Virus record (IMG/VR): IMGVR_UViG_3300009941_000125
Coordinates: 1 to 31,539 of that record
Strand: one strand, 5' to 3'
DNA length: 31,539 nucleotides
DNA from: a virus
Taxonomy: Duplodnaviria; Heunggongvirae; Uroviricota; Caudoviricetes
Part shown: one piece after another, positions 8,868 to 22,638 of the stretch
How positions within the stretch are numbered: the first letter of the stretch is position 1
Layout: each line of letters begins with the position of its first letter
The notes under the pieces: generated by a model
The model's database searches: none
Seen by the model: the letters and a program-made list of their open reading frames with translations, nothing else
Told to the model about the DNA's origin: nothing
Position numbers and translations under genes: made by a program

Positions 8868-9788
8868 TTATGCACCGATATTTTCAATCAAAACAGCGGC
8901 ATCTGGATACTGGGCAGCAAAAGCAAGTCTTTCAGAAGCAACTACCAGTAATTGGTCAGAACGAATCAAAACTTCGTCTGAAGATTTAATTGTGAACATT
9001 CTGCGATCACCGATGATAGCAGCATTACGATTAATCATAAGAGCGACGGATTCGTTGCCAGCCATACCAAGGTTAGTTGGTAATAGGTTAGTAGCAACAA
9101 CAGGAACACCCCAAACTTTACCGATCTCACCAGGAAGAGCAGTGCCTGTCAAACCTAATGCATTAACAGCTAAGTTAATACCTAGTAATTGACGAAGTCT
9201 ATTTTCTTCACGAAGTGAAACAACTAGTAATAGTTCGGATTTGTCGCGGCCATATACGCCTAAGTTCTGAATGGAACTGGAAACATTTGCGAGAGTCAAA
9301 GCAGCACTGGCTGCATCAACAGAAGTACCCGTGGCAATAGTCCTTAGACCATTAAAAGCAAACTTTGGATCGTTTGCACCCCAAGCACCCGCAGTGTCAC
9401 CATTTAACATAACATCTTCTTCAGCTAAAGCAAAAGCCTTAGCCATATCGTCTCTTACAACCGGAACGATCGGTAGAATTGCATCTTCTTGCAACTCTGA
9501 ACTGATAGCCAAAGCAACCATAAGTTTTTTAGCAACCATCTCAACTGTACCAGTAGCCATAAGTGATTCTGGGGAAGAAATGGCTTCACCAACGTAATAA
9601 ACGTTGTTACCAGTTGTGAGTTTAGGAAATCTATATGTCTGCGAAGGCATAACAAATGAAGGAAGGAACTGACGTAGATAGCTCTTTTGACGAATATAAG
9701 GAATAATTTGATCAGCTAAGCGAGGGATGATAGTATCACCACCTGTACCTGCTGTCGTATTGAGAGCTTTTTCGAATGTAGTACTCAT
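8868..9788 (-). CDS. Major capsid protein (HK97 fold), 306 aa
   Basis: KALNT..G.GG..IP..AD.II...S.LR...P...YYVGE...KKL...ISSEL.ED...FALAEED..LNGD...FNGL...G.V.GVPVV...IGDRR...ER.AF; relatively GC-rich codons; follows the protease. Confidence 0.95.
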   Translation of the reverse strand: MSTTFEKALNTTAGTGGDTIIPRLADQIIPYIRQKSYLRQFLPSFVMPSQTYRFPKLTTGNNVYYVGEAISSPESLMATGTVEMVAKKLMVALAISSELQEDAILPIVPVVRDDMAKAFALAEEDVMLNGDTAGAWGANDPKFAFNGLRTIATGTSVDAASAALTLANVSSSIQNLGVYGRDKSELLLVVSLREENRLRQLLGINLAVNALGLTGTALPGEIGKVWGVPVVATNLLPTNLGMAGNESVALMINRNAAIIGDRRMFTIKSSDEVLIRSDQLLVVASERLAFAAQYPDAAVLIENIGA

Positions 9789-9838
9789 TTTATTTTCTAT
9801 CCACCTTTTTTCCCTAATTTACTGTTTATTTAATATTC

Positions 9839-9959
9839 GAGGTTCAGTTGGGAAACTAACCTCTGCACGTGGTAAAAACCACCTTAATTTTTTTAATAAT
9901 CTTCTTTATGCATAAAGTATCTTATTTCGTTGCTATTGCAACTGAGTTATCACTCAATT
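9839..9959 (-). promoter_or_regulatory. Hairpin-dense intergenic leader upstream of the capsid gene
   Basis: Five inverted repeats read directly, at 9839-9863, 9869-9882, 9904-9917 (perfect 14-bp palindrome), 9929-9942 and 9940-9959. Function inferred only. Confidence 0.55.
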
Positions 9960-9963
9960 TAAA

Positions 9964-11664
9964 TTACTGGTCGTCGCCGAAACCTTTACATAGGGCATGT
10001 GCAAACAATGCATCTTCAGTTAAACCTTCGCCTTGAGACTTTTCAATTTTTTCATTAGTGGCTATAACGCCTTTTCTACCTTCAGAAACCTCTAATGATT
10101 TTTGAATAGGGGCTACTGCAGCTCTAACAGCTTTTTCTACGAGAGATTCAATATCAACAGATTTAGTTCTGTCTTTACCATAATTTTTCATAGGTTCTTC
10201 ATCAGCAGCACCAGCTAATTTCTTAAAAGGAGCATTTTGAGGAACAGAAATATCTTCTGGGCTTGTTCTTTTACCTGTTGATGGTTTAATGTAATTCTTA
10301 CCTTCAAATTCTTGGATACATTCACCTGAATCTTCAGAAGCACCTGTTTTTAGGACTTCAAGATTCTTTTCAACGGTTTCGTCAGCTTCATCTAAATATT
10401 TACAAAGTTCAACATAATCTTGTTCATCTAATTCTGGCAAATTTGATTTTTCCATTTCTTCATCAGCTTCAAAGTCTTGAGAAAAATCGTACCCACATTT
10501 AGGGCAAAATTTAACTTCATAATCTACATCACCCATTTCAAAATTTGTATTACAACTCTTACATTTCATTTTTTTGTTCACCTCCTCTTTTTCTTCTTCG
10601 TTCTCTTCGTTATCATCTTCACTATCATCGTCTCCAACAATCTCTTCTGTATTATCATCAGTTGAACCGTCTTCTGGAGTTTCCTCCTCGCCAACAGTTT
10701 CTTCTTCAATTGTCTTTTCTGCGTTATTATCTTCTGTTTTTTCACCAGCTAAGATTCTATCTATTTTTGAAGAAACATCTTGTAACAATGCTATCACATT
10801 AGAATCACCACTTGTACTAGAATCAGTTACAGTACCAGTATCAACACCAACTGCGGTATCTTCTACAGCACCAACATCAGCAATTCCCTCACCAGGTTCT
10901 TCAGTAGTTGCTACTGTCGCTTGTTCTGCAACGCCTGGAACAGCAGGAACTTGTCCAGTAGGAACTGCTCCTTCTGGTTTTATACCAAGTAAGCTTTCTA
11001 AATTATCTAAGGCTCCTTTGATTCTTTCAACATCTTCTGGTCCTAAATTTCCTTCTGCAGCTTTTTCTATGCTGCTTATTGCATGCTCTACTTTCAATGC
11101 TTTTTCAAGTTTATTCACAGTATTTTTCACCTCACTCCCTTCTATATTTAAACTTTTCGCCATGGAAAAAACTGCTTCCGGGTTTACTGGAAGTCCAGTT
11201 AGTGACAATTCTCTAATTGTCATTTTTTTAATTCTTCTTATTTCTTTACTTGTGACGCTATCAACATCAGGAATAGTTTCTAAAGCATCTCCACCCATTG
11301 AACACCCTCTTAAAATTCCTTGTTCGATTAATTCCCAAATAGGATCTCCTAATCTACCTTTAGCAACTTCAGCTTTAAACCATATTCCCTGTGGTTTAGC
11401 TTTTGCCTCAATAACACTTCCAATAGGTAAGGAAAGTTCTTTTCTTCTATGCTCAATAAACAGTGGAATTGGATTTCCCTCTGTATTCCTTGTATTAATT
11501 TCATCTGCAGCAAAAGGATATGCTGCTGGATCTGTTATTTCATTCTCTAAATCTAAAGCAGGCGTTGTCATATATCCTTCTATATATCTATGACCAGAAG
11601 ATTTCAATTTGTTTTCAATGGCCTTATTAATATCTAGACTAATATTACCTTTTAATGATCTCAT
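9964..11664 (-). CDS. HK97-type prohead protease fused to an acidic scaffold-like region with a Zn ribbon, 566 aa
   Basis: YIEGYMTTPALDLENE...LFIEH...PIG...GIWFKAEV...GCSMGG...ELSLTGLPVNPEA is a prohead protease domain (His and Ser motifs present). It is followed by a D/E-rich linker, CKSC..CPKC and several EKS/EKA motifs. Confidence 0.92.
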   Translation of the reverse strand: MRSLKGNISLDINKAIENKLKSSGHRYIEGYMTTPALDLENEITDPAAYPFAADEINTRNTEGNPIPLFIEHRRKELSLPIGSVIEAKAKPQGIWFKAEVAKGRLGDPIWELIEQGILRGCSMGGDALETIPDVDSVTSKEIRRIKKMTIRELSLTGLPVNPEAVFSMAKSLNIEGSEVKNTVNKLEKALKVEHAISSIEKAAEGNLGPEDVERIKGALDNLESLLGIKPEGAVPTGQVPAVPGVAEQATVATTEEPGEGIADVGAVEDTAVGVDTGTVTDSSTSGDSNVIALLQDVSSKIDRILAGEKTEDNNAEKTIEEETVGEEETPEDGSTDDNTEEIVGDDDSEDDNEENEEEKEEVNKKMKCKSCNTNFEMGDVDYEVKFCPKCGYDFSQDFEADEEMEKSNLPELDEQDYVELCKYLDEADETVEKNLEVLKTGASEDSGECIQEFEGKNYIKPSTGKRTSPEDISVPQNAPFKKLAGAADEEPMKNYGKDRTKSVDIESLVEKAVRAAVAPIQKSLEVSEGRKGVIATNEKIEKSQGEGLTEDALFAHALCKGFGDDQ

Positions 11665-12095: not shown

Positions 12096-13033
12096 TTCTT
12101 TATCCTTTTAAGTTTTTCTTTCAACTCTAAATTTCTGTCTAACTCTTCTTTTGTTCCAGGGATAACACCATATGGTTCTTCAAGTGTACTATCAACGTAT
12201 AAAGTATTATTGTAATTCTTACTAAGTAAACTCTTCATTCTCTCTATCGAATTTTTAACTTCATAATCAACAAACTCTTTTCCTCTAAAAATATGATTCT
12301 TTAAAAATTCAAACCTCTCCGGCTCTAATTTCCTAAACAAAGTTGGATTTAAAACATAGTTAACATAACTTTCTGCAAAATCTTCTCGAGGGCTAGTAAC
12401 TCCATACCAAGATATTTTCATTCTTTTATCTGGTTTTTGATAAAACCCTTCGTGTTTAATTCTACTTTCAATAAATTTAACATCATCATCTTCAACAGTT
12501 GTTAATCTTTCTCTAGGGATCTCTCTAAACGAATTTAAGGCGTATTTAAAGCCTTGATTTCTTAATTTTTTATGCCCATTCTTATTATTAGCGATTGCCC
12601 ATCCAAAATGTTTATAAAAATTTTCCATATCATTTTCATCTCTACGCTGATCAACAGCATGTCCTATTTCGTGTATTAATAACTCATAAAAAGAGGGAAC
12701 ATGCTTAATTCTATGAAATGGATGAATTTTTCTAAACTCTGGAGAAAATAGTTGATTACTCAAAGTTATAGTCTTAGTTTTTCTATTATGTTTACTATAA
12801 AAACTATCATTATCCTCAATATTAATGTGTTTAATATCTGGATTCTTTTTTATGTGCCAATCCGGTAGGTTTGATTGTAAGATAACATTAGCTACTGCTT
12901 TTAAACGAGGGTAATCATCAATATCAATACTTATTCCATAATTATTTCTTATTTTTTTTTGTAGCTCGAAGACTTTTGGATCTAGCGCTTTTTTTATTTG
13001 TTGTATTCTTTCTAAAACCTGTCTTTTGGACAT
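12074..13033 (-). CDS. Zincin-like metallopeptidase (HExxH), 319 aa
   Basis: LIHEIGHAVD zinc motif plus downstream SWYGVTSPREDFAES third-ligand motif and LEPERFEFL, as in anthrax lethal factor-like/MuF-associated peptidases. Confidence 0.85.
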   Translation of the reverse strand: MSKRQVLERIQQIKKALDPKVFELQKKIRNNYGISIDIDDYPRLKAVANVILQSNLPDWHIKKNPDIKHINIEDNDSFYSKHNRKTKTITLSNQLFSPEFRKIHPFHRIKHVPSFYELLIHEIGHAVDQRRDENDMENFYKHFGWAIANNKNGHKKLRNQGFKYALNSFREIPRERLTTVEDDDVKFIESRIKHEGFYQKPDKRMKISWYGVTSPREDFAESYVNYVLNPTLFRKLEPERFEFLKNHIFRGKEFVDYEVKNSIERMKSLLSKNYNNTLYVDSTLEEPYGVIPGTKEELDRNLELKEKLKRIKKCLIKKK

Positions 13034-13337
13034 TGTTAGCGTGTTCCTTTAGTAAATTTATTTGATAATCTATATCTTTCTTTAAGTTTTCTAAGCTCTT
13101 AATCTTTGTTTTTGTTTTAAAATTAAATGCTTTAGTTCTATTTTCTATTGCTTCTTTGCAAAATTCATTAAATATCCAACTTTCTACATCTTCAATAGTT
13201 CCACAAATATGAGCAACTTCGCCAAAACCAATAACTTTTTTGTCTGTAATCTTCATCCAAAAGGCATTATTATACCCAATATCTGGTAATATTAATTCTT
13301 CTTGAGTATTTGCTGTAATTTCATTATAATTTTTCAT
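12942..13337 (-). CDS. Hypothetical protein after the portal, 131 aa
   Basis: Fills the portal-peptidase gap; overlaps the portal by 14 nt and the peptidase by 92 nt, so the 3' end is uncertain. Confidence 0.6.
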   Translation of the reverse strand: MKNYNEITANTQEELILPDIGYNNAFWMKITDKKVIGFGEVAHICGTIEDVESWIFNEFCKEAIENRTKAFNFKTKTKIKSLENLKKDIDYQINLLKEHANNVQKTGFRKNTTNKKSARSKSLRATKKNKK

Positions 13338-14865
13338 TGCTATCTTTTACGAATTTATTGTAAATTAAAGCTCTATAAATTTCATACTTTAATTGCTGAA
13401 ACATTTTTGAAAGAGATTTGTTATTGCCTTGCGCGTTTTTATCAACAGCATTAATTACTTCTTTCTTTAATAAATTAAACGCTGAAGGAAGATCTTTTGA
13501 AGCCTCTTCAATTTCTAAATCTATAGATGGTTCACCTTCAAGATTTCCTTCTTCTTCACCAAGCTGTGGTCCACCGAAAGGAGATTGGCTGCCATCATTT
13601 TGTAGCGGTTCAAGTCCTTCTTCTTTTCTAACCTCATCAGCTGTAACAACACCAGACATTATTCTTATGTTATCATATTGAGCTTTTTGCATTTTATCTT
13701 GTAAAGATTGCTCTTCAATAAATTCAAACTTTAAATTTTCAAAGCCAAACTCATCCCAAATAATATCTCTTGTTAAATAATAAGAAATTTTATCCATCAT
13801 TGGGTAGATAGCTTTATTTTTAAAAGCTTGAGATTGTAGTAATTGTCCTGTAGCAGGGGCACCTTTAACATCTTCTGTCCAGCCGACTTCTGAAGGAGTT
13901 ACTCCAAATACTGCTAAAATAAGTTTTAATAACCAATTCATATAGGTATTAAATTCCATATCTTTAGGTGTAATAGCAATAGGAGTCCATTTAGTTCCAC
14001 TTGAAGCTCCACCTACAACAAATGTTCTATGTGGTTGCTGTTGGTTCTCTGCCTGCCAATATGTTCTAAATCTATCTAGCTGATCTTCTTGAATATTAGG
14101 CCCTAAATCTAATACCCCTCTTGGAGTTGAACTGTTTTCAAAATATTTAAGGTTGTAAGTTTCTCCGTATAAAAATCCAGATACAATATTATTTAAAGAC
14201 TCTAAGGGAGACATACCGTATAGACTATCTGTTCGAGGGTTCATCATTAAATAAATAATATTTCTATTTTCAAACTGTTGAGGTTTTATTCCCTCTTGAT
14301 TTAATTCTTGCCAATAACTTTTAATTGTTCCATGTCTATCTGCATCAATCGTTATGGTTCCGCCATCAATAGCGTAAAGCTCACTTATTTTACCAGCTTT
14401 ATTTCTAACTTTTTCAAACACTCCAGAATCTAAAATAAGTAAATCTCGCATCATCTTTTCAAGAATAGTCCTAAAGTTTTCATTATTATGATTAGGATTT
14501 TCAAAGAAATGTTTTACTTCTTTTATTTGTTTTTCTTGTGCTGCTTTTTGTGTTTCATCTAATTTCTGATCTTTCTCTTTAGGCATAATATCCCAATTAG
14601 CGGAAGTAACTTCATTAATAATTGTATCTACGGCTACTCTAACAATAACGTTATATTGATACATTAATCTAGCAGCTTGTGGTGCTAGTTGTCTTGCAAC
14701 TGTAGTTTTGTTTTGGCCATATCTATTATAACTTTTGTAGCCAGGAAGCCAAGCTTTCATAGATTTCTGCATTGGTGTTTGTTGCTCTTCTTCTACGCCA
14801 TATTGCGCTTTAAAAGCTTTTTCTATTCCAGCATTAAATTTTTCTCTAAAACTTTTGAATACCAT
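13324..14865 (-). CDS. Portal protein (HK97-type), 513 aa
   Basis: VRVAVDTI...RDLLILDSG.FEKVRN..G.ISELYAIDG.TI...YGMSPLE...YF.N.STP.GVL...DMEF...I.AVFGVTP.E.G...GVVTADEVR..EGL.P are hallmark portal motifs. Confidence 0.95.
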   Translation of the reverse strand: MVFKSFREKFNAGIEKAFKAQYGVEEEQQTPMQKSMKAWLPGYKSYNRYGQNKTTVARQLAPQAARLMYQYNVIVRVAVDTIINEVTSANWDIMPKEKDQKLDETQKAAQEKQIKEVKHFFENPNHNNENFRTILEKMMRDLLILDSGVFEKVRNKAGKISELYAIDGGTITIDADRHGTIKSYWQELNQEGIKPQQFENRNIIYLMMNPRTDSLYGMSPLESLNNIVSGFLYGETYNLKYFENSSTPRGVLDLGPNIQEDQLDRFRTYWQAENQQQPHRTFVVGGASSGTKWTPIAITPKDMEFNTYMNWLLKLILAVFGVTPSEVGWTEDVKGAPATGQLLQSQAFKNKAIYPMMDKISYYLTRDIIWDEFGFENLKFEFIEEQSLQDKMQKAQYDNIRIMSGVVTADEVRKEEGLEPLQNDGSQSPFGGPQLGEEEGNLEGEPSIDLEIEEASKDLPSAFNLLKKEVINAVDKNAQGNNKSLSKMFQQLKYEIYRALIYNKFVKDSNEKL

Positions 14866-14874
14866 TTTCGCTCC

Positions 14875-15255
14875 CTACCCCCTTGTTATATAGTAAAAAA
14901 CTAAGACAAAGACTCCTGCCCAAAACCAAGTAACTCCAAACCAAGTAATTAGTGCAAGCATAAATAAAGATAAACATGAAAATAGAGTAATTTCAGTTAA
15001 AACAAAATCTCTAGTTCTCTTTGTTGCTACCCAAAACTTAATTCCTTCAACTAATATAATTGAAATAACAGAAGTTATCTTATCTACTAATGACAAGCTA
15101 TTGTTTTTTAATATGCCCCAAAAATCTAACTTATTTTCATCTAAATTAATGATTTTAGTTTCACCACATTTAGGACATTTAATTTCTTTCAATTGTTCTT
15201 CACTTAACTCTTCTTTTTTAAATATATTTCCACAAACAAAACATTGTAATCTCAT
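14875..15255 (-). CDS. Zn-ribbon plus membrane protein, 126 aa
   Basis: CFVC...CPKC at the N-terminus; hydrophobic C-terminal helices (LFSCLSLFMLALITWFGVTWFWAGVFVLVFYY). Confidence 0.8.
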   Translation of the reverse strand: MRLQCFVCGNIFKKEELSEEQLKEIKCPKCGETKIINLDENKLDFWGILKNNSLSLVDKITSVISIILVEGIKFWVATKRTRDFVLTEITLFSCLSLFMLALITWFGVTWFWAGVFVLVFYYITRG

Positions 15256-15270
15256 CTTTACTCCTCCCTA

Positions 15271-15681
15271 TTAACGATATAATGGATCCGTATTGTATCT
15301 ACTCACTGTGTTGCTAGCAATCTTTGCATCAATAAATTTATTTACATCATCCATTATTGATTTAACGACTGTAGCTTCACCTTCATCATCTGGATTGTAA
15401 GATTTAGTTCTCTCCGCTAATGCTCTCATAACACTTCGTTCTACCGTAAACACATCTGCATATGTTAGTGCTGCTAAATCTGTATACTTTCTACCAATCA
15501 TTGGTTCAGGACCTTTTGTAACTACATCATCTTTATCAACCCAAAGTCTACATCCATGCAACCATTTTAAATCTGCTTCTCCGCCATACTGAGTGATTGA
15601 TTTGTCTATTTTTTGAGACTTTTCCATATTAATCCCTTCAACAACTTTCATTCCACTCTGATCTGATATGTATTGTTTCAT
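15271..15681 (-). CDS. Hypothetical protein with KS motifs, 136 aa
   Basis: GAGGGTGA RBS; N-terminal leader ending NMEKS/IDKS. Confidence 0.75.
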   Translation of the reverse strand: MKQYISDQSGMKVVEGINMEKSQKIDKSITQYGGEADLKWLHGCRLWVDKDDVVTKGPEPMIGRKYTDLAALTYADVFTVERSVMRALAERTKSYNPDDEGEATVVKSIMDDVNKFIDAKIASNTVSRYNTDPLYR

Positions 15682-15746
15682 TACTTTTTTTCACCCTCTT
15701 TATTTATTAATTCTTCTATTATAATAAAATGTTCTCTTAATGTCAT
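15681..15746 (-). CDS. 21-aa mini-ORF MTLREHFIIIEELINKEGEKK (not in ORF track)
   Basis: Exactly bridges the gap (TAATTATG upstream, TAATG downstream); the first 9 codons are identical to the start of 20933..21784. Confidence 0.55.
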   Translation of the reverse strand: MTLREHFIIIEELINKEGEKK

Positions 15747-15754
15747 AATTATTT
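15719..15754. repeat. 36-bp exact direct repeat, copy 1 (copy 2 at 21757..21792)
   Basis: TTATAATAAAATGTTCTCTTAATGTCATAATTATTT is present at both positions. Confidence 0.9.
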
Positions 15755-18085
15755 CTTTTTATTAAATATTTGATTACTTATTTTTTCAACTTGATTATAC
15801 TCATTTTTTAATTGTTTATTAAGAAAATTATATTCTTTTGCATTTGTTCCTTCTTGAGAATATTCCATTTCTTCTTGTTGAAAATCATCTCTAATATTAC
15901 TTGCGTTTCCAGCTATTTCTATCATTTTATCAATAAGTTTATTTTTTTTAGGAAACGTATTTTTTAATTTTTTAGTAATATTATTAATTTTATCATTATC
16001 CCATTTATCAAATATTTGTGAATAAATAAAATTATCAAATTGTTTTTTAGTTGATTTTTTTTCTTTCTTAGCGTAAGGTTTTTCTTTGATTTGAGCTACT
16101 TTACCAGTTTTAGTAGTTCTTTGATAGGCTTTATGACCGGCAGGTTTTTGTCTAGACTTACAGAAATAAGCAGGTTCACCTTGTCTAACTGGGTTTTCTA
16201 TTCCATATCTTTTTAAAGTATCTCTTTCTGCTTCATGAATATCTGATTCTGGTTCCATTTCTAAAACAGGGGTTTCTTCTCTTTGTCCTGCCCAATAGGG
16301 TTTACCAGCTCTTGTTCTCACGTGTCTTCTTGATTGTTTTTTAGATTTTTCTAGATCATCTAATTGAGTTAGTTTTTCTCTTTTTAACTCTTTCATTTTT
16401 TTTGCTTCTAAAGAGTTTTTTCCATATACTTCTATTGCTTCTTTTAAATTTTTAACTTTTCTTTTCTGTTTATCTTTAGCGCCATGGGTTCTTGCTTTCT
16501 CTAAATCTTCAGGTGTTTCACAACCAGCTACAGACTTTTTAATTAGCTCTCCTGCATGAATCCGTTGCATTTTTCCTGTATGACCTTGTTTAATAAGAAC
16601 TAGTTCAGAGTTTACTGCATCTCTTTCTAATACTCTCCAATCTCCTGAACTTCCAACAACTTGAACAGTATCTCCAAATTTAATTCCTGCTCTTTTCTTT
16701 CTTTTTTGTTTATCTTTAGCACCCTGTACGCGAGATTTCTCTAAATCTTCTGGTTCTTCTTCATAATTATAAGTATCAGTAATTTCTACAACTTCTGGAG
16801 ATGTCAATTCTATTCCCACTCTAGCAGCAAAAGCGGCTACAAAATTTGGACTAATATATTCACTACTTATTCCATCTTTTTCCATTAATCTTTGTACTTC
16901 TATAACTTTATTAGTATTAATAGTTTCAGCGTCTTCTTTAAAGCTTTCAAATTCATCTCTTCTTCTTTCTAATTCTTTTTTAGCTAGTCCTCTAAAAATA
17001 TCAACATATTCTGGTTCATCTTTAGTTACTGGAGATTCAATAATGTCTTTTAATTCATTAAAACTCATTCCTCTAACTTTTGGTAAATTTTCTTCTGTAA
17101 TTGACTCTTGAACAATAGCTTTTGTTCCTTCATCAGCGGGTGTTAACCCAGCAATTCTCTCTTGAATTTCAACAACTTCTTCTGAAGAAAATATTTCTCT
17201 AGCAAATTCTTCTATATCCATTTTTCTAGCGCCACCACCAATATGCCAATCAGTTACTTCTTCCTTTGGTGTGTTTTCTTTATAATCATATATTGTCATT
17301 ATTCCAACTGGAGTATCAAATACCCATTGAGCTTTAACTTTATCATCAGCACTTCCTAGAGTATGCGGTTCTCCCAATAAAGAAACTAATTCGCTATATG
17401 ACATTTCCACTCGACTAACAAAAGATGTTCCTATTGCCTTCCTAGAAGGGACTTTAGTAAGTTGATGTTCTTGTAAAAACGATTTTCCAGTTTCTTTTAG
17501 ATTATTAAATTTTATTTTGCTTTCTTTTTTAGCACCGCTTCCAACACTAATAACTTTTCCACTTCTTAATCGTCTTTGATGCCGTTCAGGTTTCTTTCTA
17601 GATTTTTCAAAATCGTCTTGTAGCATTTCATATCCACTTTTAGCTCCTTGTCTAAGAATTTCTTTTACTTTACCATCAAGTTTATCATAATATTTATGTT
17701 GTGCATCTTCATTGTTTGATATTCCTAGTTTTTCAAAAAACTCTTCTGCGTCTTCACTAATATCAATATTATTAATATCATTCATAACTTCTTTTAAAGA
17801 ATAGCCAGCATTAAATCCATCTGCAACAATATTATCAGTTAAAATACCTGCGATTTGTTTTGCAAATTTGTTAGTCACTTTTTCTTTTAACTCAACTTTT
17901 TTAGTATAAGGTTTTTCTTTAATTTGAGCCACTTTGCCTGTTTTTGTAGTTCTTTGATATGCTTTGTGTCCGGCAGGTTTTTTTCTAGATTTTTCAATTT
18001 CTTCTCTATCAAGGCCTAGACTTTTTTCTAGATCAAAATAGTCTTCTTTTTTAAATTTATCTTCAAATTCAAATTTAAATATCAT
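15749..18085 (-). CDS. Modular 778-aa protein with repeated K-S/K-A sites and basic peptide modules (putative processed head polyprotein)
   Basis: Eight candidate sites: DLEKS, EIEKS, DFEKS, DLEKS, LIKKS, DLEKA, DLEKS, FCKS. Six are followed by one of two basic motif families; distinct small domains lie between them. Confidence 0.8.
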   Translation of the reverse strand: MIFKFEFEDKFKKEDYFDLEKSLGLDREEIEKSRKKPAGHKAYQRTTKTGKVAQIKEKPYTKKVELKEKVTNKFAKQIAGILTDNIVADGFNAGYSLKEVMNDINNIDISEDAEEFFEKLGISNNEDAQHKYYDKLDGKVKEILRQGAKSGYEMLQDDFEKSRKKPERHQRRLRSGKVISVGSGAKKESKIKFNNLKETGKSFLQEHQLTKVPSRKAIGTSFVSRVEMSYSELVSLLGEPHTLGSADDKVKAQWVFDTPVGIMTIYDYKENTPKEEVTDWHIGGGARKMDIEEFAREIFSSEEVVEIQERIAGLTPADEGTKAIVQESITEENLPKVRGMSFNELKDIIESPVTKDEPEYVDIFRGLAKKELERRRDEFESFKEDAETINTNKVIEVQRLMEKDGISSEYISPNFVAAFAARVGIELTSPEVVEITDTYNYEEEPEDLEKSRVQGAKDKQKRKKRAGIKFGDTVQVVGSSGDWRVLERDAVNSELVLIKQGHTGKMQRIHAGELIKKSVAGCETPEDLEKARTHGAKDKQKRKVKNLKEAIEVYGKNSLEAKKMKELKREKLTQLDDLEKSKKQSRRHVRTRAGKPYWAGQREETPVLEMEPESDIHEAERDTLKRYGIENPVRQGEPAYFCKSRQKPAGHKAYQRTTKTGKVAQIKEKPYAKKEKKSTKKQFDNFIYSQIFDKWDNDKINNITKKLKNTFPKKNKLIDKMIEIAGNASNIRDDFQQEEMEYSQEGTNAKEYNFLNKQLKNEYNQVEKISNQIFNKKK
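16073..16159. repeat. 87-bp intragenic repeat, copy 1 (29-aa KSRxKPAGHKAYQRTTKTGKVAQIKEKPY; copy 2 at 17906..17992)
   Basis: Codon-by-codon comparison: 11 differences, 10 synonymous. Confidence 0.9.
17906..17992. repeat. 87-bp intragenic repeat, copy 2
   Basis: See 16073..16159. Confidence 0.9.
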
Positions 18086-18530
18086 CTCGTACTCCTTCTT
18101 GTTGCATTATTTTCTCTTCTTCTTGCAAACCTTCACTTTGTTCTAATATTTTTATCAGAGTGTTAAAAGCAGCACCATAATATTTAAAATCTGGTTCATA
18201 TCCAATTTTTTGCTTATAACTTGTTAGAATAATTTCATATTGAAGTGCTTTATCTTGAATAATAATTCTAACTTCCTCTATTGGATTTTTATATACTTCA
18301 AATTGATCAGCTGCATATTCAACAGCTATTTTGATTCCGTTCAATTCATCAATTTTTTCCTGATCAAATTCAAGTAAGTCTCCACCTAATAAATCAATAG
18401 CTCTTCCAACCTGTTTTGATATAGAGCGTAGAAAGATAATAAATTTACCTCTAGACTCCCAATTAGCAACTTTATAATAGGGGTCCGCAAAGTTAAAATA
18501 TATTGATTTTCCTAAATTTTTTAATACCAT
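18075..18530 (-). CDS. Hypothetical helical protein, 151 aa
   Basis: Fills the gap; overlaps the next gene by 11 nt; no recognisable motif. Confidence 0.75.
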   Translation of the reverse strand: MVLKNLGKSIYFNFADPYYKVANWESRGKFIIFLRSISKQVGRAIDLLGGDLLEFDQEKIDELNGIKIAVEYAADQFEVYKNPIEEVRIIIQDKALQYEIILTSYKQKIGYEPDFKYYGAAFNTLIKILEQSEGLQEEEKIMQQEGVRDDI

Positions 18531-18533
18531 TTG

Positions 18534-18818
18534 TTACCCTGCTTTATATAATTCATATCGTAAATCTCTTACTGTTAATCCTGGGCCATATATTGGGTCT
18601 AAAAACTCAAACCATAAATCATCTGGATTTATTGCTGTGCTTGGTATAGCGGCTTGTACTGCAGCTATCTCTAAATCAACAGTAGTTAATTCTTCTAATG
18701 CAGGAGCCCCACCAAGAACTGCAATATACCATGCTCTTTCTCTATCTAAAAGTGTGCCTGCTACAATGCCACGGTTAATATACCATTGCATTTCATAATC
18801 TTCAAAAGTTTCGCTCAA
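18534..18818 (-). CDS. Small acidic hypothetical protein, 94 aa (TTG start)
   Basis: TTG start overlapping the upstream TGA; AGGAGA RBS; aromatic/acidic composition unlike the Lys-rich neighbours. Confidence 0.7.
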   Translation of the reverse strand: MSETFEDYEMQWYINRGIVAGTLLDRERAWYIAVLGGAPALEELTTVDLEIAAVQAAIPSTAINPDDLWFEFLDPIYGPGLTVRDLRYELYKAG

Positions 18819-19348
18819 AGTAAGTCTCCTCTATTCTTCCAGCCAGCTAATGTAGAACCTAATTTGTTCATTGATAAACCTACTGGAGGATAATAATGCT
18901 CTGCTTTATATGTATAGTCGCCTAAATCTTCAAATGCATCTATACCTTGTTTATCTGGATATATCTGAGTAATCCAAGCTCCATAATCTATTAATAATTC
19001 TGTTGGATAGAATATAGCCCAATGTCCTGAAGGCTGGTCAACTTCTCTAGCATTTTCAGCAGGAACATCTGTATTAGGTGGCTTTAATAAGCCTAATTCT
19101 ATTACATAGTTCCATAAACTTGTTTGTTGCCAAAGATCTGGCATAGGGTCTGTAGTATTTTCTGTTACTTGACTGACTCCACCAACCCAGCCGGTTCCAC
19201 CAACGTTTGATAACCCTTCTCCAGGCACTGCAAATTCTTTTGCTGTCCATTTATTTTCAAACAACCAATCTGATAAATCTGGATGGATTACCGGCGTTCC
19301 ATACCCCGTGATTTTTTCTATTGGAGCCCTTCCGTCAAGATACGCCAT
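18815..19348 (-). CDS. Acidic, Pro/Gly/Trp-rich hypothetical protein, 177 aa
   Basis: Uninterrupted ORF; composition suggests a structural protein; no motif recognised. Confidence 0.75.
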   Translation of the reverse strand: MAYLDGRAPIEKITGYGTPVIHPDLSDWLFENKWTAKEFAVPGEGLSNVGGTGWVGGVSQVTENTTDPMPDLWQQTSLWNYVIELGLLKPPNTDVPAENAREVDQPSGHWAIFYPTELLIDYGAWITQIYPDKQGIDAFEDLGDYTYKAEHYYPPVGLSMNKLGSTLAGWKNRGDLL

Positions 19349-19350
19349 AG

Positions 19351-20190
19351 TTATTTACTTTCTTTTTTCTTTTTCTTCTTGTTCTTAAAACTCCAAGATT
19401 GATTCTTTGTACCCATACCAACACCAACAACTCCTGCACCGCCGTCGCCCGTTGTCATACTCTTTTCACCTTTAATCATATTTAACGCTGTTTGAGTGGG
19501 TTTTTTTGTTACGTGCTTACCAATAAGATACCTTTTAAAAGCTTCTTTTTCTTTATCTGATTTTAAAAACTTTTTTGCAGCTTGATACTTTGATTTCATA
19601 AGCTTTAAAGAATCTTCAACTGGGGCCTCAACTTCTACAGAAGCTTTAGCGCTTTTTTCTGTATAATCTTGACCAAGTTTAGCTTTAACAGCCTTTTCAA
19701 TAACATCAATTAAGTTCTTATCAGATGATTTAATAACAAGACTATAAGATTTCTTTGCTGATTTTCTTATTCCAGGTTTAGGAATGTTATTTTCTTCTTC
19801 TTTAAAATATTCTTTATTCCCAGGTGTCAATTCTTTATCATAAATAATATCTCCAGAAGCTCCCTTGTTTGCTGTCTTGCCTATAGTAGTATCCATATTG
19901 TCGCCAATATCTTCATACTGTTCATCTGTTCCTGCTTGAGGAATTGTTGAAACCTTTTCCCCAATGTCATCCCATTGTTCCTCATTTTTTGGTTGAGGAA
20001 TCTCTTCAATTTTATCCGGCGTAACATCTTCCCATTGAGCTGTACTTCCTGCTTCTTTCTTTGCTTTTTCCCTCACACTTTTAGTTAGAGAACTTATTTT
20101 TGTTTTTACTTCCCCTTCTGCTTTCATTTTAACTAATTCTTTTTTAAAATGTTCTTTTGGGTCTGGTGTACTAAATGAAAAAATTACCAT
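19351..20190 (-). CDS. Hypothetical protein with internal acidic repeats and KS/KA motifs, 279 aa
   Basis: Three Q[WY][ED]D[VI] repeats at 19-20 aa spacing; multiple KS/KA motifs; poly-Lys C-terminus. Confidence 0.8.
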   Translation of the reverse strand: MVIFSFSTPDPKEHFKKELVKMKAEGEVKTKISSLTKSVREKAKKEAGSTAQWEDVTPDKIEEIPQPKNEEQWDDIGEKVSTIPQAGTDEQYEDIGDNMDTTIGKTANKGASGDIIYDKELTPGNKEYFKEEENNIPKPGIRKSAKKSYSLVIKSSDKNLIDVIEKAVKAKLGQDYTEKSAKASVEVEAPVEDSLKLMKSKYQAAKKFLKSDKEKEAFKRYLIGKHVTKKPTQTALNMIKGEKSMTTGDGGAGVVGVGMGTKNQSWSFKNKKKKKKESK

Positions 20191-20442
20191 TTATTCTTCT
20201 ACCTCCTTTATATCTAGAAACATCTGCGCCAATCTTTCGTCAAATTCTTCTTTCGTCATTACTTTGTTTGTGAATTGGTCTATAAAATACATTTTCATAG
20301 CCTTTTCTATTTCTTCTCTTGAAGGGTTATCCCTTGAAGAGAATTTGCTTAAAGCGTCTCTATACGGATTGCCGGATTTACAATTCTTTAAAAACTTTAA
20401 AACCCTACCATCTTTAGAGACAACATAGTGATTTAGTGTCAT
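20191..20442 (-). CDS. Hypothetical protein, 83 aa
   Basis: AAGAGG RBS; MTLNHYVVSKDG leader, then NCKSGNPYRD basic motif. Confidence 0.75.
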   Translation of the reverse strand: MTLNHYVVSKDGRVLKFLKNCKSGNPYRDALSKFSSRDNPSREEIEKAMKMYFIDQFTNKVMTKEEFDERLAQMFLDIKEVEE

Positions 20443-20466
20443 ATTTATTCCTCTTAATAGTTATTA

Positions 20467-20529
20467 TTACTTCAATGCAGAAAGTTCACCAGGGGTGACC
20501 CAGCAATCACTGGTATATGCTCTAATCAC
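20467..20529 (-). CDS. Possible 20-aa mini-ORF MIRAYTSDCWVTPGELSALK (GTG start)
   Basis: GTGA overlap with the upstream stop, AGAGG upstream, ends in tandem TAA codons. Could instead be a structured non-coding spacer. Confidence 0.35.
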   Translation of the reverse strand: MIRAYTSDCWVTPGELSALK

Positions 20530-20933
20530 TTCAAAAGGCCTCTTTCTTTAAGCATATGCCATGTATTACCCATTTCGTACCCTGAATTATCTTTAGGTTG
20601 ATCTTTTTCTACAACTTGTGGGACGAACGTATCTCCAGTTATATTAGGAGTATTTAATAACGGCCCTTGCCTACCAGATTGTTCAAAGGCATGATTATCT
20701 AATTCTGCTCTATCAACTTTTCTATAAGTTATTCCATCAGCATCAACATATCTATCTGGATATGGAGTAGGAACACTTAACGATTCTGGGGTATATAACA
20801 TACCAGAATTCCAAGTCCAATAATCTCTGAAAACTTCTCCATTGTTATAATAGTTTCCTCTTTGAAGAGGATCTAATAGATTTAATGTTTGTTTATATTC
20901 GTCTACGCCCAAACATTCGTAGAAAATAGTCAT
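20526..20933 (-). CDS. Hypothetical protein, 135 aa
   Basis: TAATG-coupled to the upstream gene; Tyr/Trp/Pro-rich; no motif recognised. Confidence 0.75.
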   Translation of the reverse strand: MTIFYECLGVDEYKQTLNLLDPLQRGNYYNNGEVFRDYWTWNSGMLYTPESLSVPTPYPDRYVDADGITYRKVDRAELDNHAFEQSGRQGPLLNTPNITGDTFVPQVVEKDQPKDNSGYEMGNTWHMLKERGLLK

Positions 20934-21784
20934 TACTTACCTACTTTTTCAGGTAAATCCTTTCCCTTAGGGGTTTCTTTTGCCCATTTTTTAGCCATTT
21001 CTGGTTCTTGAGAATACATCCATCTTCGTTGTGCATCACTTTGAAATGGTTTTTCAATTATCTCAAGGTCTTCTTCAGGATAAGTAGTAACATCAGGATC
21101 AACAGTTGGCCATTGAGTTTGCGATTCTTGTTTCCATTTTTTAGTGGCTGCATAATTTTTTTCAATCTTAGTTCCAAATAAAACTTCATTAATCTCTTCT
21201 CTCATATCTGCTAACTCATTTAGATCTCCAACTAAATCAGAAATTCCATCTACGCCTTCTGATTTATATGTGACTCTATAGTGAGCATTAACTTTTTTCA
21301 TCTTCTCTTTAATTACATCAAGTTTTTTCTGTGCATTTTCAGTTAAAGTTTTATATGCTTCAGAATAAAGAGCTTTATATGGAAAACTAGGAATTTCAAC
21401 ATGCACTAAACCCATAACAGCATCACCTGTTTGGATTCTTGATGCATTTAGTCTATTAAATACTGGTTGCAATCTATCGGCAAATTCTCTTCTTGTTTCT
21501 TTCAAAGAAGCTGCTTGTGCTTCTAGTACTTTAATCTTTGCGTCAATGTTAGCTAGTTTACCAAATTCTTTTTTAAAATCTTTTAGCTTAGGTTCATTTG
21601 CGTGAAATGTAATATGCTTCTTACCGCCAGTCATTCTTTCTTCAATAGGAGCAGGAGCTTTACCGGCCCAAAAGACTTTACCTTTTTTAGAGGTTCTTTT
21701 ATGTTTTTTAGGCTTTTTGGCTTTATCTAAAGAGCGAGTAATAACTGTATTTTCGTTTATAATAAAATGTTCTCTTAATGTCAT
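20933..21784 (-). CDS. Modular hypothetical protein, 283 aa (leader, basic module, coiled-coil domain, short C-terminal module)
   Basis: LDKA-KKPKKHKRTSKKGKVFWAG matches a module in the 778-aa protein; C-terminal PFQSDAQRRWMYSQEPEMAKKWAKETPKGKDLPEKV. Confidence 0.8.
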   Translation of the reverse strand: MTLREHFIINENTVITRSLDKAKKPKKHKRTSKKGKVFWAGKAPAPIEERMTGGKKHITFHANEPKLKDFKKEFGKLANIDAKIKVLEAQAASLKETRREFADRLQPVFNRLNASRIQTGDAVMGLVHVEIPSFPYKALYSEAYKTLTENAQKKLDVIKEKMKKVNAHYRVTYKSEGVDGISDLVGDLNELADMREEINEVLFGTKIEKNYAATKKWKQESQTQWPTVDPDVTTYPEEDLEIIEKPFQSDAQRRWMYSQEPEMAKKWAKETPKGKDLPEKVGK

Positions 21785-21792
21785 AATTATTT
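21757..21792. repeat. 36-bp exact direct repeat, copy 2
   Basis: Identical to 15719..15754. Confidence 0.9.
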
Positions 21793-22638
21793 TTTACCTT
21801 GTCTTTTTACTTCTTGTTTTAAATTTTTAAACGAAGAACCTTTAGGTTTATTTTCTAACTCATCTAAAGTATCCCAAATCCTTTTTCGACTAGAAGTTAA
21901 AGGTGATTTTCTTTTATTTTTATCCTTAGCTCCAGTTGTTCTAGCTTTAATAAAAATAGATTTATCTAATAATGTAAATGTTGATTTTTCTTTTTTAGTA
22001 GAAGTTTTATTAGCTTCTCGTTTATCTATTTCTTTTTTATATTCTTTTCCTAACTTAGAATCTGTTCCCCATCTTCCGTCTTGTTTTTCCAAATCGGCAT
22101 ATAATTCTTTTAATTCATTAGTGCTTAACTTCTTTAAATCAACTTGATAATTATTTAATTTCCCTTTATCTCTAAATCTATTTATAATTTTAACAGATTC
22201 TGGATTAACTGTTGTATGAAATTTATAAGATCTCAAAAACTGATTAGCTAAATTTCTATTAACTCCCATTTCTTTTTGTAAAGTTTCTAATATCTGGTCT
22301 TCATCTACTTTAAAATTAATGGGAGACTTATCTTGATTGTGTACTTGATTTACTCCTTTAGTCTTTCTTTTTTTCTTATCTTTAGCACCAGTAGTTCTTG
22401 ATTTTTCTAAATCTTCTGAAATAGATTTTTCGCCACGTTTATATGCCGCTAATTCTTTACTTTGTTCTTTAATTAGCTTATCTAATTTTTTGTCTCTTTT
22501 AGGCATTCTAGCTTGATGTTCTTTTAAAGTATCAATTAGACCTTCATGCTCTTCAACAATTTCTTCTTGTGTAAAAGAGATTGTATCAGATTTTTTAAAA
22601 ATCTTTTCTCCATCTGTTTTATAAATGTTTAATACCAT
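21787..22638 (-). CDS. Modular basic hypothetical protein with two GAKDK modules, 283 aa
   Basis: DLEKS-RTTGAKDKKKRK and FIKA-RTTGAKDKNKRK, the same module as in the 778-aa protein. Confidence 0.8.
   Translation of the reverse strand: MVLNIYKTDGEKIFKKSDTISFTQEEIVEEHEGLIDTLKEHQARMPKRDKKLDKLIKEQSKELAAYKRGEKSISEDLEKSRTTGAKDKKKRKTKGVNQVHNQDKSPINFKVDEDQILETLQKEMGVNRNLANQFLRSYKFHTTVNPESVKIINRFRDKGKLNNYQVDLKKLSTNELKELYADLEKQDGRWGTDSKLGKEYKKEIDKREANKTSTKKEKSTFTLLDKSIFIKARTTGAKDKNKRKSPLTSSRKRIWDTLDELENKPKGSSFKNLKQEVKRQGKK

What the first reader, a model, noticed from the sequence alone, without database searches (positions are those of the whole stretch)
15749..18085. Putative protease-processed polyprotein: repeating [K-S site + basic tag + cargo domain] units
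Seen: the 778-aa protein has eight K-S/K-A motifs (DLEKS, EIEKS, DFEKS, DLEKS, LIKKS, DLEKA, DLEKS, FCKS). Six are followed immediately by one of two basic peptides: R..GAKDKQKRK (x2) or K.K.p..H...R....GK (x4). Unrelated small domains lie between them: helical segments, a GTS...SYSELVSLLGEP...W...TIYDYK...WHIGG domain (17234-17431) and an SH3/KOW-like beta barrel (16532-16687). Established: HK97 protease cleaves gp5 at Lys103-Ser104, T4 gp21 processes internal head proteins, and this phage's capsid starts MSTTFEK-A. Inference: one gene is packaged into the prohead and cut by the prohead protease into several tagged mini-proteins, possibly DNA-bound and ejected. This would be a eukaryotic-virus-style polyprotein strategy in a phage head.
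Basis: partly seen in the sequence, partly recalled or inferred. Interest (0 to 1): 0.85.

Follow-up and report, generated by a model that had tools for sequence, protein, structure and literature searches.

The report
Phage head cargo polyprotein with cut-sites
A 778-residue phage gene next to the portal gene looks like a string of small proteins, each preceded by the same sequence motif that marks the phage's head-protease targets and by a short basic peptide, so it is probably loaded into the head and cut into pieces there; this is computational evidence only.

Summary
The gene is on the minus strand (15749-18085) and encodes 778 aa.

Bare K-S/K-A is not enriched in it (16 seen, 12.6 expected, p=0.17). 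The real motif is hydrophobic-E-K|[S/A]: six copies against 0.3 expected (p about 1e-5).

In an unbiased scan, EKS and EKA are the two tripeptides most enriched in the head-module ORFs against the rest of the 113-kb genome, even without this gene. The motif ends the capsid leader (MSTTFEK|A, conserved in relatives behind leaders of 2-9 residues). It also occurs five times in the S78 protease-scaffold and near the portal N-terminus.

Six K|S/A junctions are followed by one of two basic, predicted-disordered tags, then by separately folding segments. One segment (205-305, pLDDT 91) is a free-standing phage protein elsewhere. In one relative it is a separate gene upstream of the portal, with its own leader, site and basic peptide.

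Related phages carry the same site-plus-tag units on different cargo. One syntenic relative has 14 tag A and 2 tag B copies upstream of its head module.

Best reading (about 0.65): a head-loaded polyvalent protein cut in trans by the HK97-type prohead protease. Virion presence, cleavage, DNA binding and ejection are untested. I class it as a new variant of known kinds.

The parts
15749..18085 (-). Whole gene, 778 aa (P0001): predicted head-loaded polyvalent or polyprotein precursor
   Evidence: ORF list and translation. No Pfam or PHROG family. It lies two genes upstream of the portal. The positional counterpart P0107 in a relative has the same place.
17990..18085 (-). N-terminal leader (aa 1-21, ends DLEK|S) plus an 11-aa acidic spacer (aa 22-32, ends EIEK|S)
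   Evidence: The same double-site leader is seen in P0048 (ELEK|SLG...TIEK|A) and shorter ones in P0144 and P0107. HK97 gp5 reads TFNK|SLGSD at its known maturation site.
17603..17989 (-). Unit 1, aa 33-161: tag A (29-aa form, aa 33-63, nt 17897-17989) plus a helical bundle (aa 62-161); ends DDFEK|S
   Evidence: AF2 gives pLDDT 82-93 for residues 70-160, while the tag is below 50.
16736..17602 (-). Unit 2, aa 162-450: tag A (short form), domain X (aa 205-305, nt 17171-17473) and a helical region (aa 330-425); ends EDLEK|S
   Evidence: Domain X matches hundreds of ~100-aa free-standing phage proteins. It folds alone at pLDDT 91.4 and pTM 0.82. Fold matches are uncharacterised proteins, including entries labelled DUF6900 or YopX.
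16496..16735 (-). Unit 3, aa 451-530: tag B (SRVQGAKDKQKRK) plus a small beta domain (aa 467-518, nt 16532-16687); contains the doubtful LIKK|S; ends EDLEK|A
   Evidence: The ESM Atlas model of 451-520 resembles SH3/KOW-type barrels (MSSS, YajC, Spt5 KOW; TM 0.69-0.75, short stretch). AF2 confidence here is low.
16346..16495 (-). Unit 4, aa 531-580: tag B (ARTHGAKDKQKRK) plus one long helix; ends DDLEK|S
16157..16345 (-). Unit 5, aa 581-643: tag A (short form, ...GKPYWAG) plus an acidic stretch and an AER..RY segment; ends YFCK|S (non-canonical)
   Evidence: The unit is conserved in P0107 and P0048, which end at FEK|A and FIK|S respectively at the aligned position (P0048 also has NEK|S five residues earlier).
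15752..16156 (-). Unit 6, aa 644-778: second copy of the 29-aa tag A plus a C-terminal helical domain
   Evidence: The copies differ by 11 synonymous and 2 non-synonymous codons. AF2 gives helices 679-777 at pLDDT 72-85.
9964..11664 (-). Prohead protease (S78, aa ~20-170) fused to an acidic scaffold-like tail, with five h-E-K|[S/A] sites (K188, K201, K406, K511, K542): the presumed processing enzyme
   Evidence: Pfam PF04586 and phrog_80. H72 and S122 align with HK97 gp4 H65 and S114. Sites. Predicted fragments are acidic (net -44 and -11) and lack basic N-termini.
8868..9788 (-). Major capsid protein with a 7-residue leader MSTTFEK|A (nt 9768-9788)
   Evidence: PF05065. About 30 homologues with intact N-termini show leaders of 2-9 residues followed by a conserved [F/I]-E-K-A-L.
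13324..14865 (-). Portal protein with an N-terminal GIEK|A site (K16)
   Evidence: PF04860. Site. Portals of relatives carry the motif 30-55 residues from the N-terminus.
21787..22638 (-). 283-aa protein of the same gene array with two tag B copies (SEDLEK|SRTTGAKDKKKRK; SIFIK|ARTTGAKDKNKRK)
20933..21784 (-). 283-aa protein with an N-terminal leader ending SLDK|A followed by tag A (AKKPKKHKRTSKKGKVFWAG)
   Evidence: tag A HMM domain E=5.6e-13.
15271..15681 (-). 136-aa protein between the polyprotein and the portal, with an N-terminal site NMEK|S (K21)
   Evidence: The syntenic 145-aa gene in relative G003 has IFEK|S at K20.

Best explanation
P0001 is a late, head-associated polyvalent protein built as beads on a string: a short leader followed by six units. 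Each unit has an acidic stretch ending in hydrophobic-E-K, then S or A, then a basic disordered tag of 17-30 residues, then a small folded cargo segment.

The most likely mechanism has five steps.

1. The protein is made with the head proteins. This is inferred from its position two genes upstream of the portal, in one co-directional gene block.
2. It is incorporated into the prohead. This is inferred, and the loading signal is unknown: leader, or basic tags against the very acidic scaffold tail.
3. The HK97-type (S78) prohead protease encoded at 9964-11664 cuts it after the Lys of each h-E-K|[S/A] site. This is the same motif that ends the capsid leader, sits near the portal N-terminus and dissects the protease-scaffold. 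The step is inferred from motif statistics and conservation.
4. The cut yields pieces of about 15, 33, 9, 6, 7 and 16 kDa, each with a strongly basic N-terminus. That basic end would keep the piece on the packaged DNA, whereas the acidic scaffold fragments leave. This is speculative.
5. The pieces enter the cell with the DNA. This is speculative.

The cargo functions are unknown. One segment belongs to a widespread family of small free-standing phage proteins.
For: Motif statistics
- P0001 has six [LIFVM]EK[SA] against 0.32 expected; 1 of 100,000 shuffles reached 6.
- Genome-wide, 18 of 22 occurrences lie in the 17 ORFs of 8868-22638 (4,504 aa). Four lie in the other 148 ORFs (30,836 aa). Fisher p=3e-13, or 3e-9 without P0001.
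- In an unbiased tripeptide scan, EKS (p=3e-9) and EKA (p=3e-5) rank first and second for enrichment in the head module. This also holds without P0001.

The motif marks classical protease substrates
- It ends the capsid leader MSTTFEK|A. It also occurs at portal K16 and five times in the protease-scaffold.
- Capsid homologues have leaders of 2-9 residues followed by an invariant-like FEK-AL.
- In relatives the motif sits near the N-termini of the portal and of many small head-side proteins, and 2-7 times in each protease-scaffold.

Protease family and specificity
- Peptidase_S78 domain. The aligned His and Ser are conserved with HK97 gp4.
- HK97 gp5 reads TFNK|SLGSD at its known K103|S104 site; here the first site reads DLEK|SLGLD.
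- An HK97-like staphylococcal phage cuts after R or K (PMC8569155).

Modularity
- AF2 of the whole protein gives pTM 0.36, with confident islands (62-163, 201-310, 330-425, 680-778) separated by low-confidence tags.
- Domain X folds alone at pLDDT 91 and is a free-standing ~100-aa protein in hundreds of phage clusters.
- In relative L026, domain X is a separate 147-aa gene five genes upstream of the portal, with its own leader, a T-E-K|S junction (EK|S, Thr rather than a hydrophobic residue at P3) and a basic peptide.
- P0048, P0107 (syntenic) and P0144 share the site-plus-tag units but carry different cargo.
- Upstream of its head module, relative G003 has 14 tag A and 2 tag B copies in 9 ORFs, mostly straight after K|[S/A].

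Selection and charge
- The two tag A copies differ by 11 synonymous and 2 non-synonymous codons.
- Every predicted P0001 fragment after the leader carries +6 to +8 charge in its first 20 residues. Scaffold fragments do not.
Against: - There is no proteomic, structural or expression evidence. The phage lineage is uncultured: the nearest cultured capsids are about 28% identical or less.
- Site and tag travel together as a repeat unit. The six sites in P0001 are therefore not independent events, and that count alone cannot separate a cleavage site from part of a repeated module.
- In G003 about 4 of 14 tag A copies lack a preceding K-[S/A].
- K530 and K580 lie in predicted helices, K580 at pLDDT about 80. 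The HK97 delta domain is helical and is nevertheless cut.
- Conservation of FEK-AL in the capsid could partly reflect N-arm structure rather than a cleavage site.
- The protein matches no family known to be in virions.
Confidence: 0.65

Rival explanations
1. P0001 is processed by the prohead protease but is disposable. It acts as an accessory scaffold or core protein that helps build or fill the prohead. It is then chopped into small peptides that leave the capsid, as with the long propeptides of giant-phage head proteins or T4 core proteins. The fragments have no later function.
For: - In SPN3US, long N-terminal propeptides are cut at several sites and mostly cleared (PMC10052503).
- P0001 is largely helical and Lys/Glu-rich, like scaffolds.
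- A helical segment gave a weak structural match to a T4 scaffold family (TM 0.57).
Against: - Domain X is an autonomously folding domain found free-standing in unrelated phages, among small non-structural genes.
- The tags are under purifying selection and are repeated before every unit. That repetition makes sense only if each piece needs its own tag after separation.
- The phage already has a scaffold, fused to the protease.
Confidence: 0.15
2. P0001 is not cleaved. It acts as a full-length protein, in the virion or in the cell. The [acidic-EK-S/A-basic] unit would then be a repeated nucleic-acid- or protein-binding module spread by internal duplication and recombination among the array genes.
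For: - Motif and tag co-occur as one repeat.
- Some tags lack a site.
- N4 vRNAP and several plasmid polyvalent proteins are transferred uncut (PMC5512222).
Against: - The h-E-K|[S/A] motif also occurs without any tag, exactly where prohead proteases are expected to cut: the capsid leader, the portal N-terminus and the protease-scaffold junctions. It is nearly absent from the other 148 ORFs.
- Leaders of variable length before a fixed FEK-A in capsid homologues are typical of removed propeptides.
Confidence: 0.12
3. P0001 is cleaved, but by another enzyme. Candidates are the stand-alone HEIGH zincin encoded between portal and protease (12074-13033), as proposed for embedded metallopeptidases of polyvalent proteins, or a host protease.
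For: - An HExxH protein lies inside the head module.
- Iyer et al. 2017 propose metallopeptidase-driven release in polyvalent proteins.
- Host-protease processing of phage heads is known for staphylococcal phage 80alpha (mentioned in PMC8569155).
Against: - Relatives that keep the motif in capsid, portal and scaffold have no zincin at that position. L003 and L005 have a sigma-like gene there instead.
- P1 Lys with P1' Ser matches HK97-type proteases.
- The zincin has only a sub-threshold M90 hit.
Confidence: 0.05

Closest known systems
HK97 prohead protease gp4 (MEROPS S78) and its substrate gp5
   Same: Same protease family, by Pfam and by the aligned His/Ser. Cleavage is after Lys and before Ser: HK97 reads TFNK|SLGSD and this gene DLEK|SLGLD. 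Several further K|S/A junctions occur in the HK97 delta domain and in gp4 itself.
   Different: In HK97 the only substrates are the capsid delta domain and the protease, and the fragments are discarded. Here the motif has a fixed Glu at P2 and a hydrophobic residue at P3. It is spread over many extra head-side proteins, including a multi-unit one.
T4 internal proteins (IPI-III, Alt) with capsid-targeting leaders removed by gp21
   Same: Small, partly basic proteins are loaded into the prohead, lose an N-terminal leader to the prohead protease at a short consensus, stay with the DNA and are injected (established knowledge; summarised in PMC5512222).
   Different: In T4 there is one gene, one leader and one cut per protein. 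The protease family and motif differ (after Glu). There is no sequence similarity. Here several cargo units sit in one ORF and a basic tag stays on each product.
Multi-site processing of head and ejection proteins in giant phages (SPN3US gp245, phiKZ gp175; A-x-E motif)
   Same: Many head proteins share one short cleavage motif. Some are cut at several sites, and motif scanning predicts the substrates (PMC10052503).
   Different: There, the multiple cuts dismantle long N-terminal propeptides and leave one mature C-terminal product. Here every inter-site piece has its own conserved tag and, in most cases, its own folded segment.
Polyvalent proteins of phages and conjugative elements (Iyer, Burroughs, Anand, de Souza, Aravind 2017)
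   Same: A multi-domain protein encoded beside virion genes, predicted to travel with the DNA and to be released into separate domains. The authors themselves draw the polyprotein analogy. Domain X of P0001 also occurs in 1,266-1,442-aa proteins with InPase and pentapeptide domains of that class.
   Different: P0001 has no embedded peptidase and none of the catalogued enzymatic domains. Release would be in trans by the prohead protease, at a motif shared with the structural proteins. The repeated basic tags are not described there.
Adenovirus core precursors (pVII, pX/mu, pTP) cut by the viral protease inside the capsid; encapsulin cargo-loading peptides
   Same: These are functional analogies only, from established knowledge. 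In the first, basic DNA-bound peptides are generated by in-capsid proteolysis. In the second, short peptide tags direct cargo into an HK97-fold shell.
   Different: The proteins and proteases are unrelated. Nothing was tested here beyond charge and predicted disorder.

Membership tests
Substrate of an HK97-type (S78) prohead protease | An S78 protease with catalytic His/Ser is encoded in the same head module | tested here: met
   PF04586 at E=4.3e-6, above the cut-off; phrog_80. H72 and S122 align with HK97 gp4 H65 and S114. That these are the catalytic residues of gp4 is from memory.
Substrate of an HK97-type (S78) prohead protease | Carries the same site motif as the phage's capsid maturation site and protease self-processing sites | tested here: met
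   h-E-K|[S/A] occurs in the capsid leader, the portal, five times in the protease-scaffold and six times in P0001. Enrichment statistics are, conservation in relatives.
Substrate of an HK97-type (S78) prohead protease | Physically present in proheads and cut there | not testable with these tools
   Uncultured phage; no proteome available.
Polyvalent proteins (Iyer et al. 2017) | Two or more disparate domains in one polypeptide, encoded beside packaging or virion genes | tested here: met
   AF2 gives separate folded islands at pTM 0.36. The gene is two genes upstream of the portal.
Polyvalent proteins (Iyer et al. 2017) | Contains catalogued effector or anchor domains (MuF, ParB, MPTase, ART, SNF2, methylase and others) | tested here: not met
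   No Pfam or PHROG hit. Only domain X is shared with InPase-bearing giant proteins. A separate 472-aa protein of the same genome has ParB_N-like domains plus the same site and tag.
Polyvalent proteins (Iyer et al. 2017) | Embedded peptidase for self-release | tested here: not met
   No peptidase domain in P0001. A zincin is a separate gene.
T4-type internal proteins with a capsid-targeting sequence | Sequence relationship to IPI/IPII/IPIII/Alt, or cleavage by a gp21-type protease after Glu | tested here: not met
   No match in phage genomes, PHROGs or Pfam. The protease is S78 and the motif ends in Lys.
MuF / SPP1 gp7 minor head proteins | MuF domain | tested here: not met
   P0001 has none. 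The MuF-like gene of this phage is 7718-8479.

The most novel reading that the evidence does not exclude
This uncultured myophage lineage uses a portable cargo grammar: [acidic stretch, h-E-K|S/A, basic tag]. The grammar lets any small protein be loaded into the head, cut free by the HK97-type prohead protease, held on the DNA by its new basic N-terminus and co-injected. The units exist either as single genes with short leaders or fused into true polyproteins such as P0001, which carries six cargo units. Gene fusion and fission between the two forms would be ongoing.
Probability: 0.35. Interest if true: 0.8.

Novelty: new variant of a known kind. Interest (0 to 1): 0.65.

Why it matters
If confirmed, this would be a clear example of a phage polyprotein resolved in trans by the prohead protease. 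It would show that HK97-type proteases, usually thought to trim only capsid and scaffold, can service a large and variable set of internal cargo proteins.

It would also define a short, transferable site-plus-tag signal, potentially useful for loading foreign proteins into HK97-fold capsids. A family of small, widespread phage proteins (domain X) would be flagged as likely first-minute effectors delivered ready-made.

The motif itself gives a simple way to predict the head proteome of an uncultured phage lineage from sequence alone.

Tried and rejected
Searches that returned nothing useful
- Pfam and PHROGs on P0001 and on its relatives P0048, P0107 and P0144 gave nothing.
- megablast and tblastn against 50,697 phage records gave nothing.
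- The word-indexed homologue search of the whole protein found only an identical fragment. The same search with residues 570-778 found nothing.
- The portal as a single query found no related viral loci. An alignment of capsid homologues was needed instead.

Structure searches
- A PDB profile search with the domain X alignment gave only a marginal hit to a BLIP-like protein (E=0.07).
- Foldseek against the PDB gave no match at E<=0.001. The BamE/BLIP-like resemblance is too weak to use.
- The protease-scaffold has no sequence relative in the PDB.

Other checks
- The promoter and terminator scan of 8-24 kb found no more sites than shuffles give, so it says nothing about operon structure.
- In the complete 178-kb relative G001 the motif clusters only moderately in the head region. 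It is also diluted by an unrelated YG[ILV]EK-A motif of a repeated gene family.

Ideas considered and dropped
- Tag B as an AT-hook relative and tag A as a ribosomal-protein-L34-like peptide: these are recollections only, and no tool result supports them.
- Complex prediction was not used. A protease-substrate pair is a poor case for it, and no specific tag partner could be named.
Full report
WHAT IS THERE

The finding lies on the minus strand. ORF 15749..18085 encodes a 778-aa Lys/Glu-rich protein, P0001. The window is the first 31.5 kb of a 113-kb IMG/VR virus record, about 73% complete and about 31% G+C. Almost all of its genes are on one strand.

The neighbourhood is a myovirus morphogenesis block, listed here from high to low coordinates:
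- an array of unannotatable genes (23.5-15.3 kb);
- the portal (13324-14865, PF04860);
- a 319-aa HEIGH protein;
- a Peptidase_S78 prohead protease fused to a very acidic scaffold-like tail (9964-11664);
- the HK97-fold capsid protein (8868-9788);
- a MuF-like protein (7718-8479);
- tail completion and sheath genes.

P0001 sits two genes upstream of the portal.

CHECKING THE OBSERVATION

All eight K-S/K-A pentapeptides and both kinds of basic peptide are present as described. The dipeptide itself is not remarkable: 16 K[SA] against 12.6 expected (p=0.17). The significant signal is hydrophobic-E-K-[S/A], with six copies (K21, K32, K161, K450, K530, K580) against 0.32 expected. Only 1 of 100,000 shuffles reached six.

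FCK|S (K643) is non-canonical. It is followed by the same 29-aa tag as K32, and it aligns with K|S/A junctions in two relatives: FEK|A in P0107 and FIK|S in P0048, which also has NEK|S five residues earlier. LIKK|S (K517) has no tag and remains uncertain. Double sites around a short acidic spacer do recur in this family.

IS THE MOTIF A PROTEASE SITE?

Four lines of evidence, none depending on P0001 alone, say it probably is.

First, distribution within the genome. Among 165 ORFs, 18 of 22 motif occurrences lie in the 17 ORFs between 8868 and 22638. The other 148 ORFs hold four, against about seven expected. Fisher's test gives p=3e-13, or 3e-9 with P0001 removed.

Second, an unbiased scan. 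Among all tripeptides, EKS and EKA are the first and second most enriched in the head-module ORFs. This again holds without P0001.

Third, position within proteins. The motif sits where prohead proteases are known to act:
- the end of the 7-residue capsid leader (MSTTFEK|A);
- portal K16;
- the C-terminal tip of a 143-aa basic protein;
- five places in the protease-scaffold, including just after the protease domain and around its acidic tail.

Fourth, conservation in relatives. Among 48 capsid homologues, those with intact N-termini have leaders of 2 to 9 residues followed by a conserved [F/I]-E-K-A-L. In related contigs the motif appears as follows:
- 30-55 residues into the portals;
- two to seven times in each protease-scaffold;
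- at the ends of short N-terminal leaders of many small proteins upstream of the portal, for example MYKLPIEK|SRKQ and MLRLPIEK|SKKT.

The enzyme fits. The S78 domain aligns with HK97 gp4 with His and Ser conserved. HK97 gp5 reads TFNK|SLGSD at its known K103|S104 cut, against DLEK|SLGLD here. A basic P1 residue was measured for another HK97-like phage (PMC8569155).

IS IT A STRING OF SEPARATE PIECES?

AlphaFold2 on the whole protein gives no global fold (pTM 0.36). It gives confident islands at 62-163, 201-310, 330-425 and 680-778. Low-confidence stretches coincide with the tags: 43-61, 167-197, 429-481 and 588-677. The ESM Atlas model is similar, at pTM 0.21.

Residues 205-305, called domain X here, fold alone at pLDDT 91.4. 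An exhaustive profile-free search found 667 representative clusters at E<=0.001 for the whole protein. Nearly all of the 150 listed match this segment, and most are ~100-aa free-standing proteins. Atlas clusters with this fold are viral. No function is known. Fold neighbours are uncharacterised proteins, including entries labelled DUF6900 or YopX, and the PDB gives nothing convincing.

In one unrelated phage, domain X lies among small non-structural genes. In a relative of the present lineage (L026) it is a separate 147-aa gene five genes upstream of the portal. Its N-terminus reads ...NTEK|SQKPRIGKPY..., that is, its own leader, a K|S junction (EK|S with Thr, not a hydrophobic residue, at P3) and a basic peptide. 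This is the single-gene form of what P0001 carries internally.

The segment 451-520 resembles SH3/KOW barrels in the Atlas model (TM about 0.7, over a short stretch), but AF2 confidence there is low.

THE TAGS

Tag A comes in two forms. The long form is KP-GHKAYQR-T-TGK-AQ-KEKPY. The short form is KKP--H-R----GK----AG-G. Tag B is [S/A]R--GAKDK-KRK. Both are strongly basic, with +6 to +8 charge in the first 20 residues of every predicted fragment, and both are predicted disordered.

The two long tag A copies in P0001 differ at 11 synonymous but only 2 non-synonymous codons. The peptide is therefore under selection and is not a recent duplicate.

The tags occur elsewhere in the same genome:
- two tag B copies in the 283-aa protein at 21787-22638;
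- tag A after SLDK|A in the 283-aa protein at 20933-21784;
- tag A after DDFEK|A between the two ParB_N-like domains of a 472-aa protein outside the window.

They also occur in relatives. P0048, P0107 and P0144 share the leaders, sites and tags but carry different cargo. P0107 is the positional counterpart of P0001, two genes upstream of the portal.

Upstream of the head module of the phage that carries P0107, 14 tag A and 2 tag B copies are spread over nine ORFs. Most follow K|[S/A] directly; about four do not. Site and tag are therefore frequently coupled, but not obligatorily.

By contrast, the predicted fragments of the protease-scaffold are acidic (net -44 and -11) and have no basic N-termini.

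MECHANISM PROPOSED

- Shown by sequence: a shared, head-specific motif; an S78 protease; modular architecture; conserved tags.
- Inferred: P0001 is loaded into the prohead and cut after each motif Lys into pieces of about 15, 33, 9, 6, 7 and 16 kDa, plus two small acidic peptides.
- Speculative: the basic N-termini hold the pieces on the DNA while acidic scaffold fragments leave, and the pieces are injected with the DNA.

The repetition of a tag before every unit is easiest to explain if the units separate, because a single loading signal would suffice for an uncut protein.

RIVALS

I considered three alternatives:
- a disposable scaffold-like protein;
- an uncut multi-domain protein with a repeated binding module;
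- cleavage by the neighbouring zincin or by a host protease.

They are weighed in the Rival explanations section. Together they hold about a third of the probability.

COMPARISON WITH WHAT IS KNOWN

The nearest precedents are these:
- HK97 protease and capsid processing: same enzyme family and P1/P1'.
- T4 internal proteins: leader removal and co-injection.
- Multi-site processing in giant phages (PMC10052503).
- Polyvalent proteins, which Iyer et al. [quoted passage not shown]

P0001 is not a member by homology of any of these substrate families. It lacks an embedded peptidase and all catalogued effector domains.

Three things are new here:
- trans-release by an HK97-type prohead protease at the same motif as the structural proteins;
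- a conserved basic tag retained on each product;
- the coexistence of single-gene and fused forms of the same unit within one phage lineage.

I therefore class it as a new variant of known kinds. It is of clear interest to phage assembly specialists but is wholly computational at present.

This scan's earlier first-reader notes on the same stretch are titles only. They cover shared K-S-tagged modules, shared leaders and the duplicated 29-aa module, and they point the same way. I checked the purifying-selection and shared-module claims myself.

PRACTICAL CAVEAT

The cut is after Lys, so tryptic or semi-tryptic proteomics cannot reveal it. Non-tryptic digests, N-terminal labelling or top-down MS are required.

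Noticed in passing
window 12074-13033 (-): A 319-aa protein with an intact HEIGH zincin motif lies between the portal and the prohead protease. It has only a sub-threshold Peptidase_M90 hit (E=0.016). Relatives L003 and L005 have a sigma-70-like gene at this position instead.
   Followed up: partly
G000:C1:37293-38711 (-), outside the window (L037:1294-2712): A 472-aa protein with two ParB_N-like DGHHR/DGIHR segments. It has a leader MTLKVISK|S and an internal VIEK|RDDFEK|A followed by tag A (QKRHQRVSKLGKPYWAG). It is a second multi-domain protein with the same site-plus-tag unit, encoded away from the head module.
   Followed up: partly
L003:6672-7946; L005:6579-7913; and the 178-kb relative (G001): Relatives encode a 424-478-aa sigma-70-like protein (Sigma70_r2/r3/r4 hits) between the portal and the prohead protease. 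In L003 it starts ...KIPIEK|G, resembling a protease leader. It may be a virion-packaged sigma factor.
   Followed up: no
L005:10001-12882; L016 region; G001: The major capsid genes of some relatives are split into two or three Phage_capsid pieces, separated by HNH, DUF559 or Vsr-like endonuclease genes. This suggests introns or homing-endonuclease insertions in the capsid gene.
   Followed up: no
proteins P0038 (1442 aa) and P0030 (1266 aa): These are giant pentapeptide/InPase polyvalent proteins that contain domain X. They carry 8 and 3 copies of a K-L-S-W-like motif between their domains, possibly the linker or cleavage motif of another phage lineage.
   Followed up: partly
window 4932-7034 (-), N-terminus; L018:14370-17390: The 700-aa protein downstream of the capsid starts with a very basic region containing HKYVKRTGSPGNYKYWY. 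Its 1006-aa positional counterpart in a relative starts MTKLPK|QSRHQRISKLGKPFQAG (tag A). L026 has ELEK|AIRLRHAPVKYLRKEGRKYIY. A wider family of H-x-R...G...Y basic hairpin-like motifs seems to mark head-internal proteins.
   Followed up: partly
window 10480-10580 (-), protease-scaffold residues ~365-392: A CxxC...CxxC zinc-ribbon (CKSCNT...FCPKCG) is embedded in the acidic scaffold tail of the protease. It is conserved in relatives, where h-E-K|S sites often flank it (FEK|SEYDVNYCPKCG).
   Followed up: no
window 14875-15255 (-): A 126-aa protein immediately upstream of the portal has an N-terminal zinc-ribbon and a hydrophobic C-terminal half. A membrane-like protein in a head module is unexplained.
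   Followed up: no
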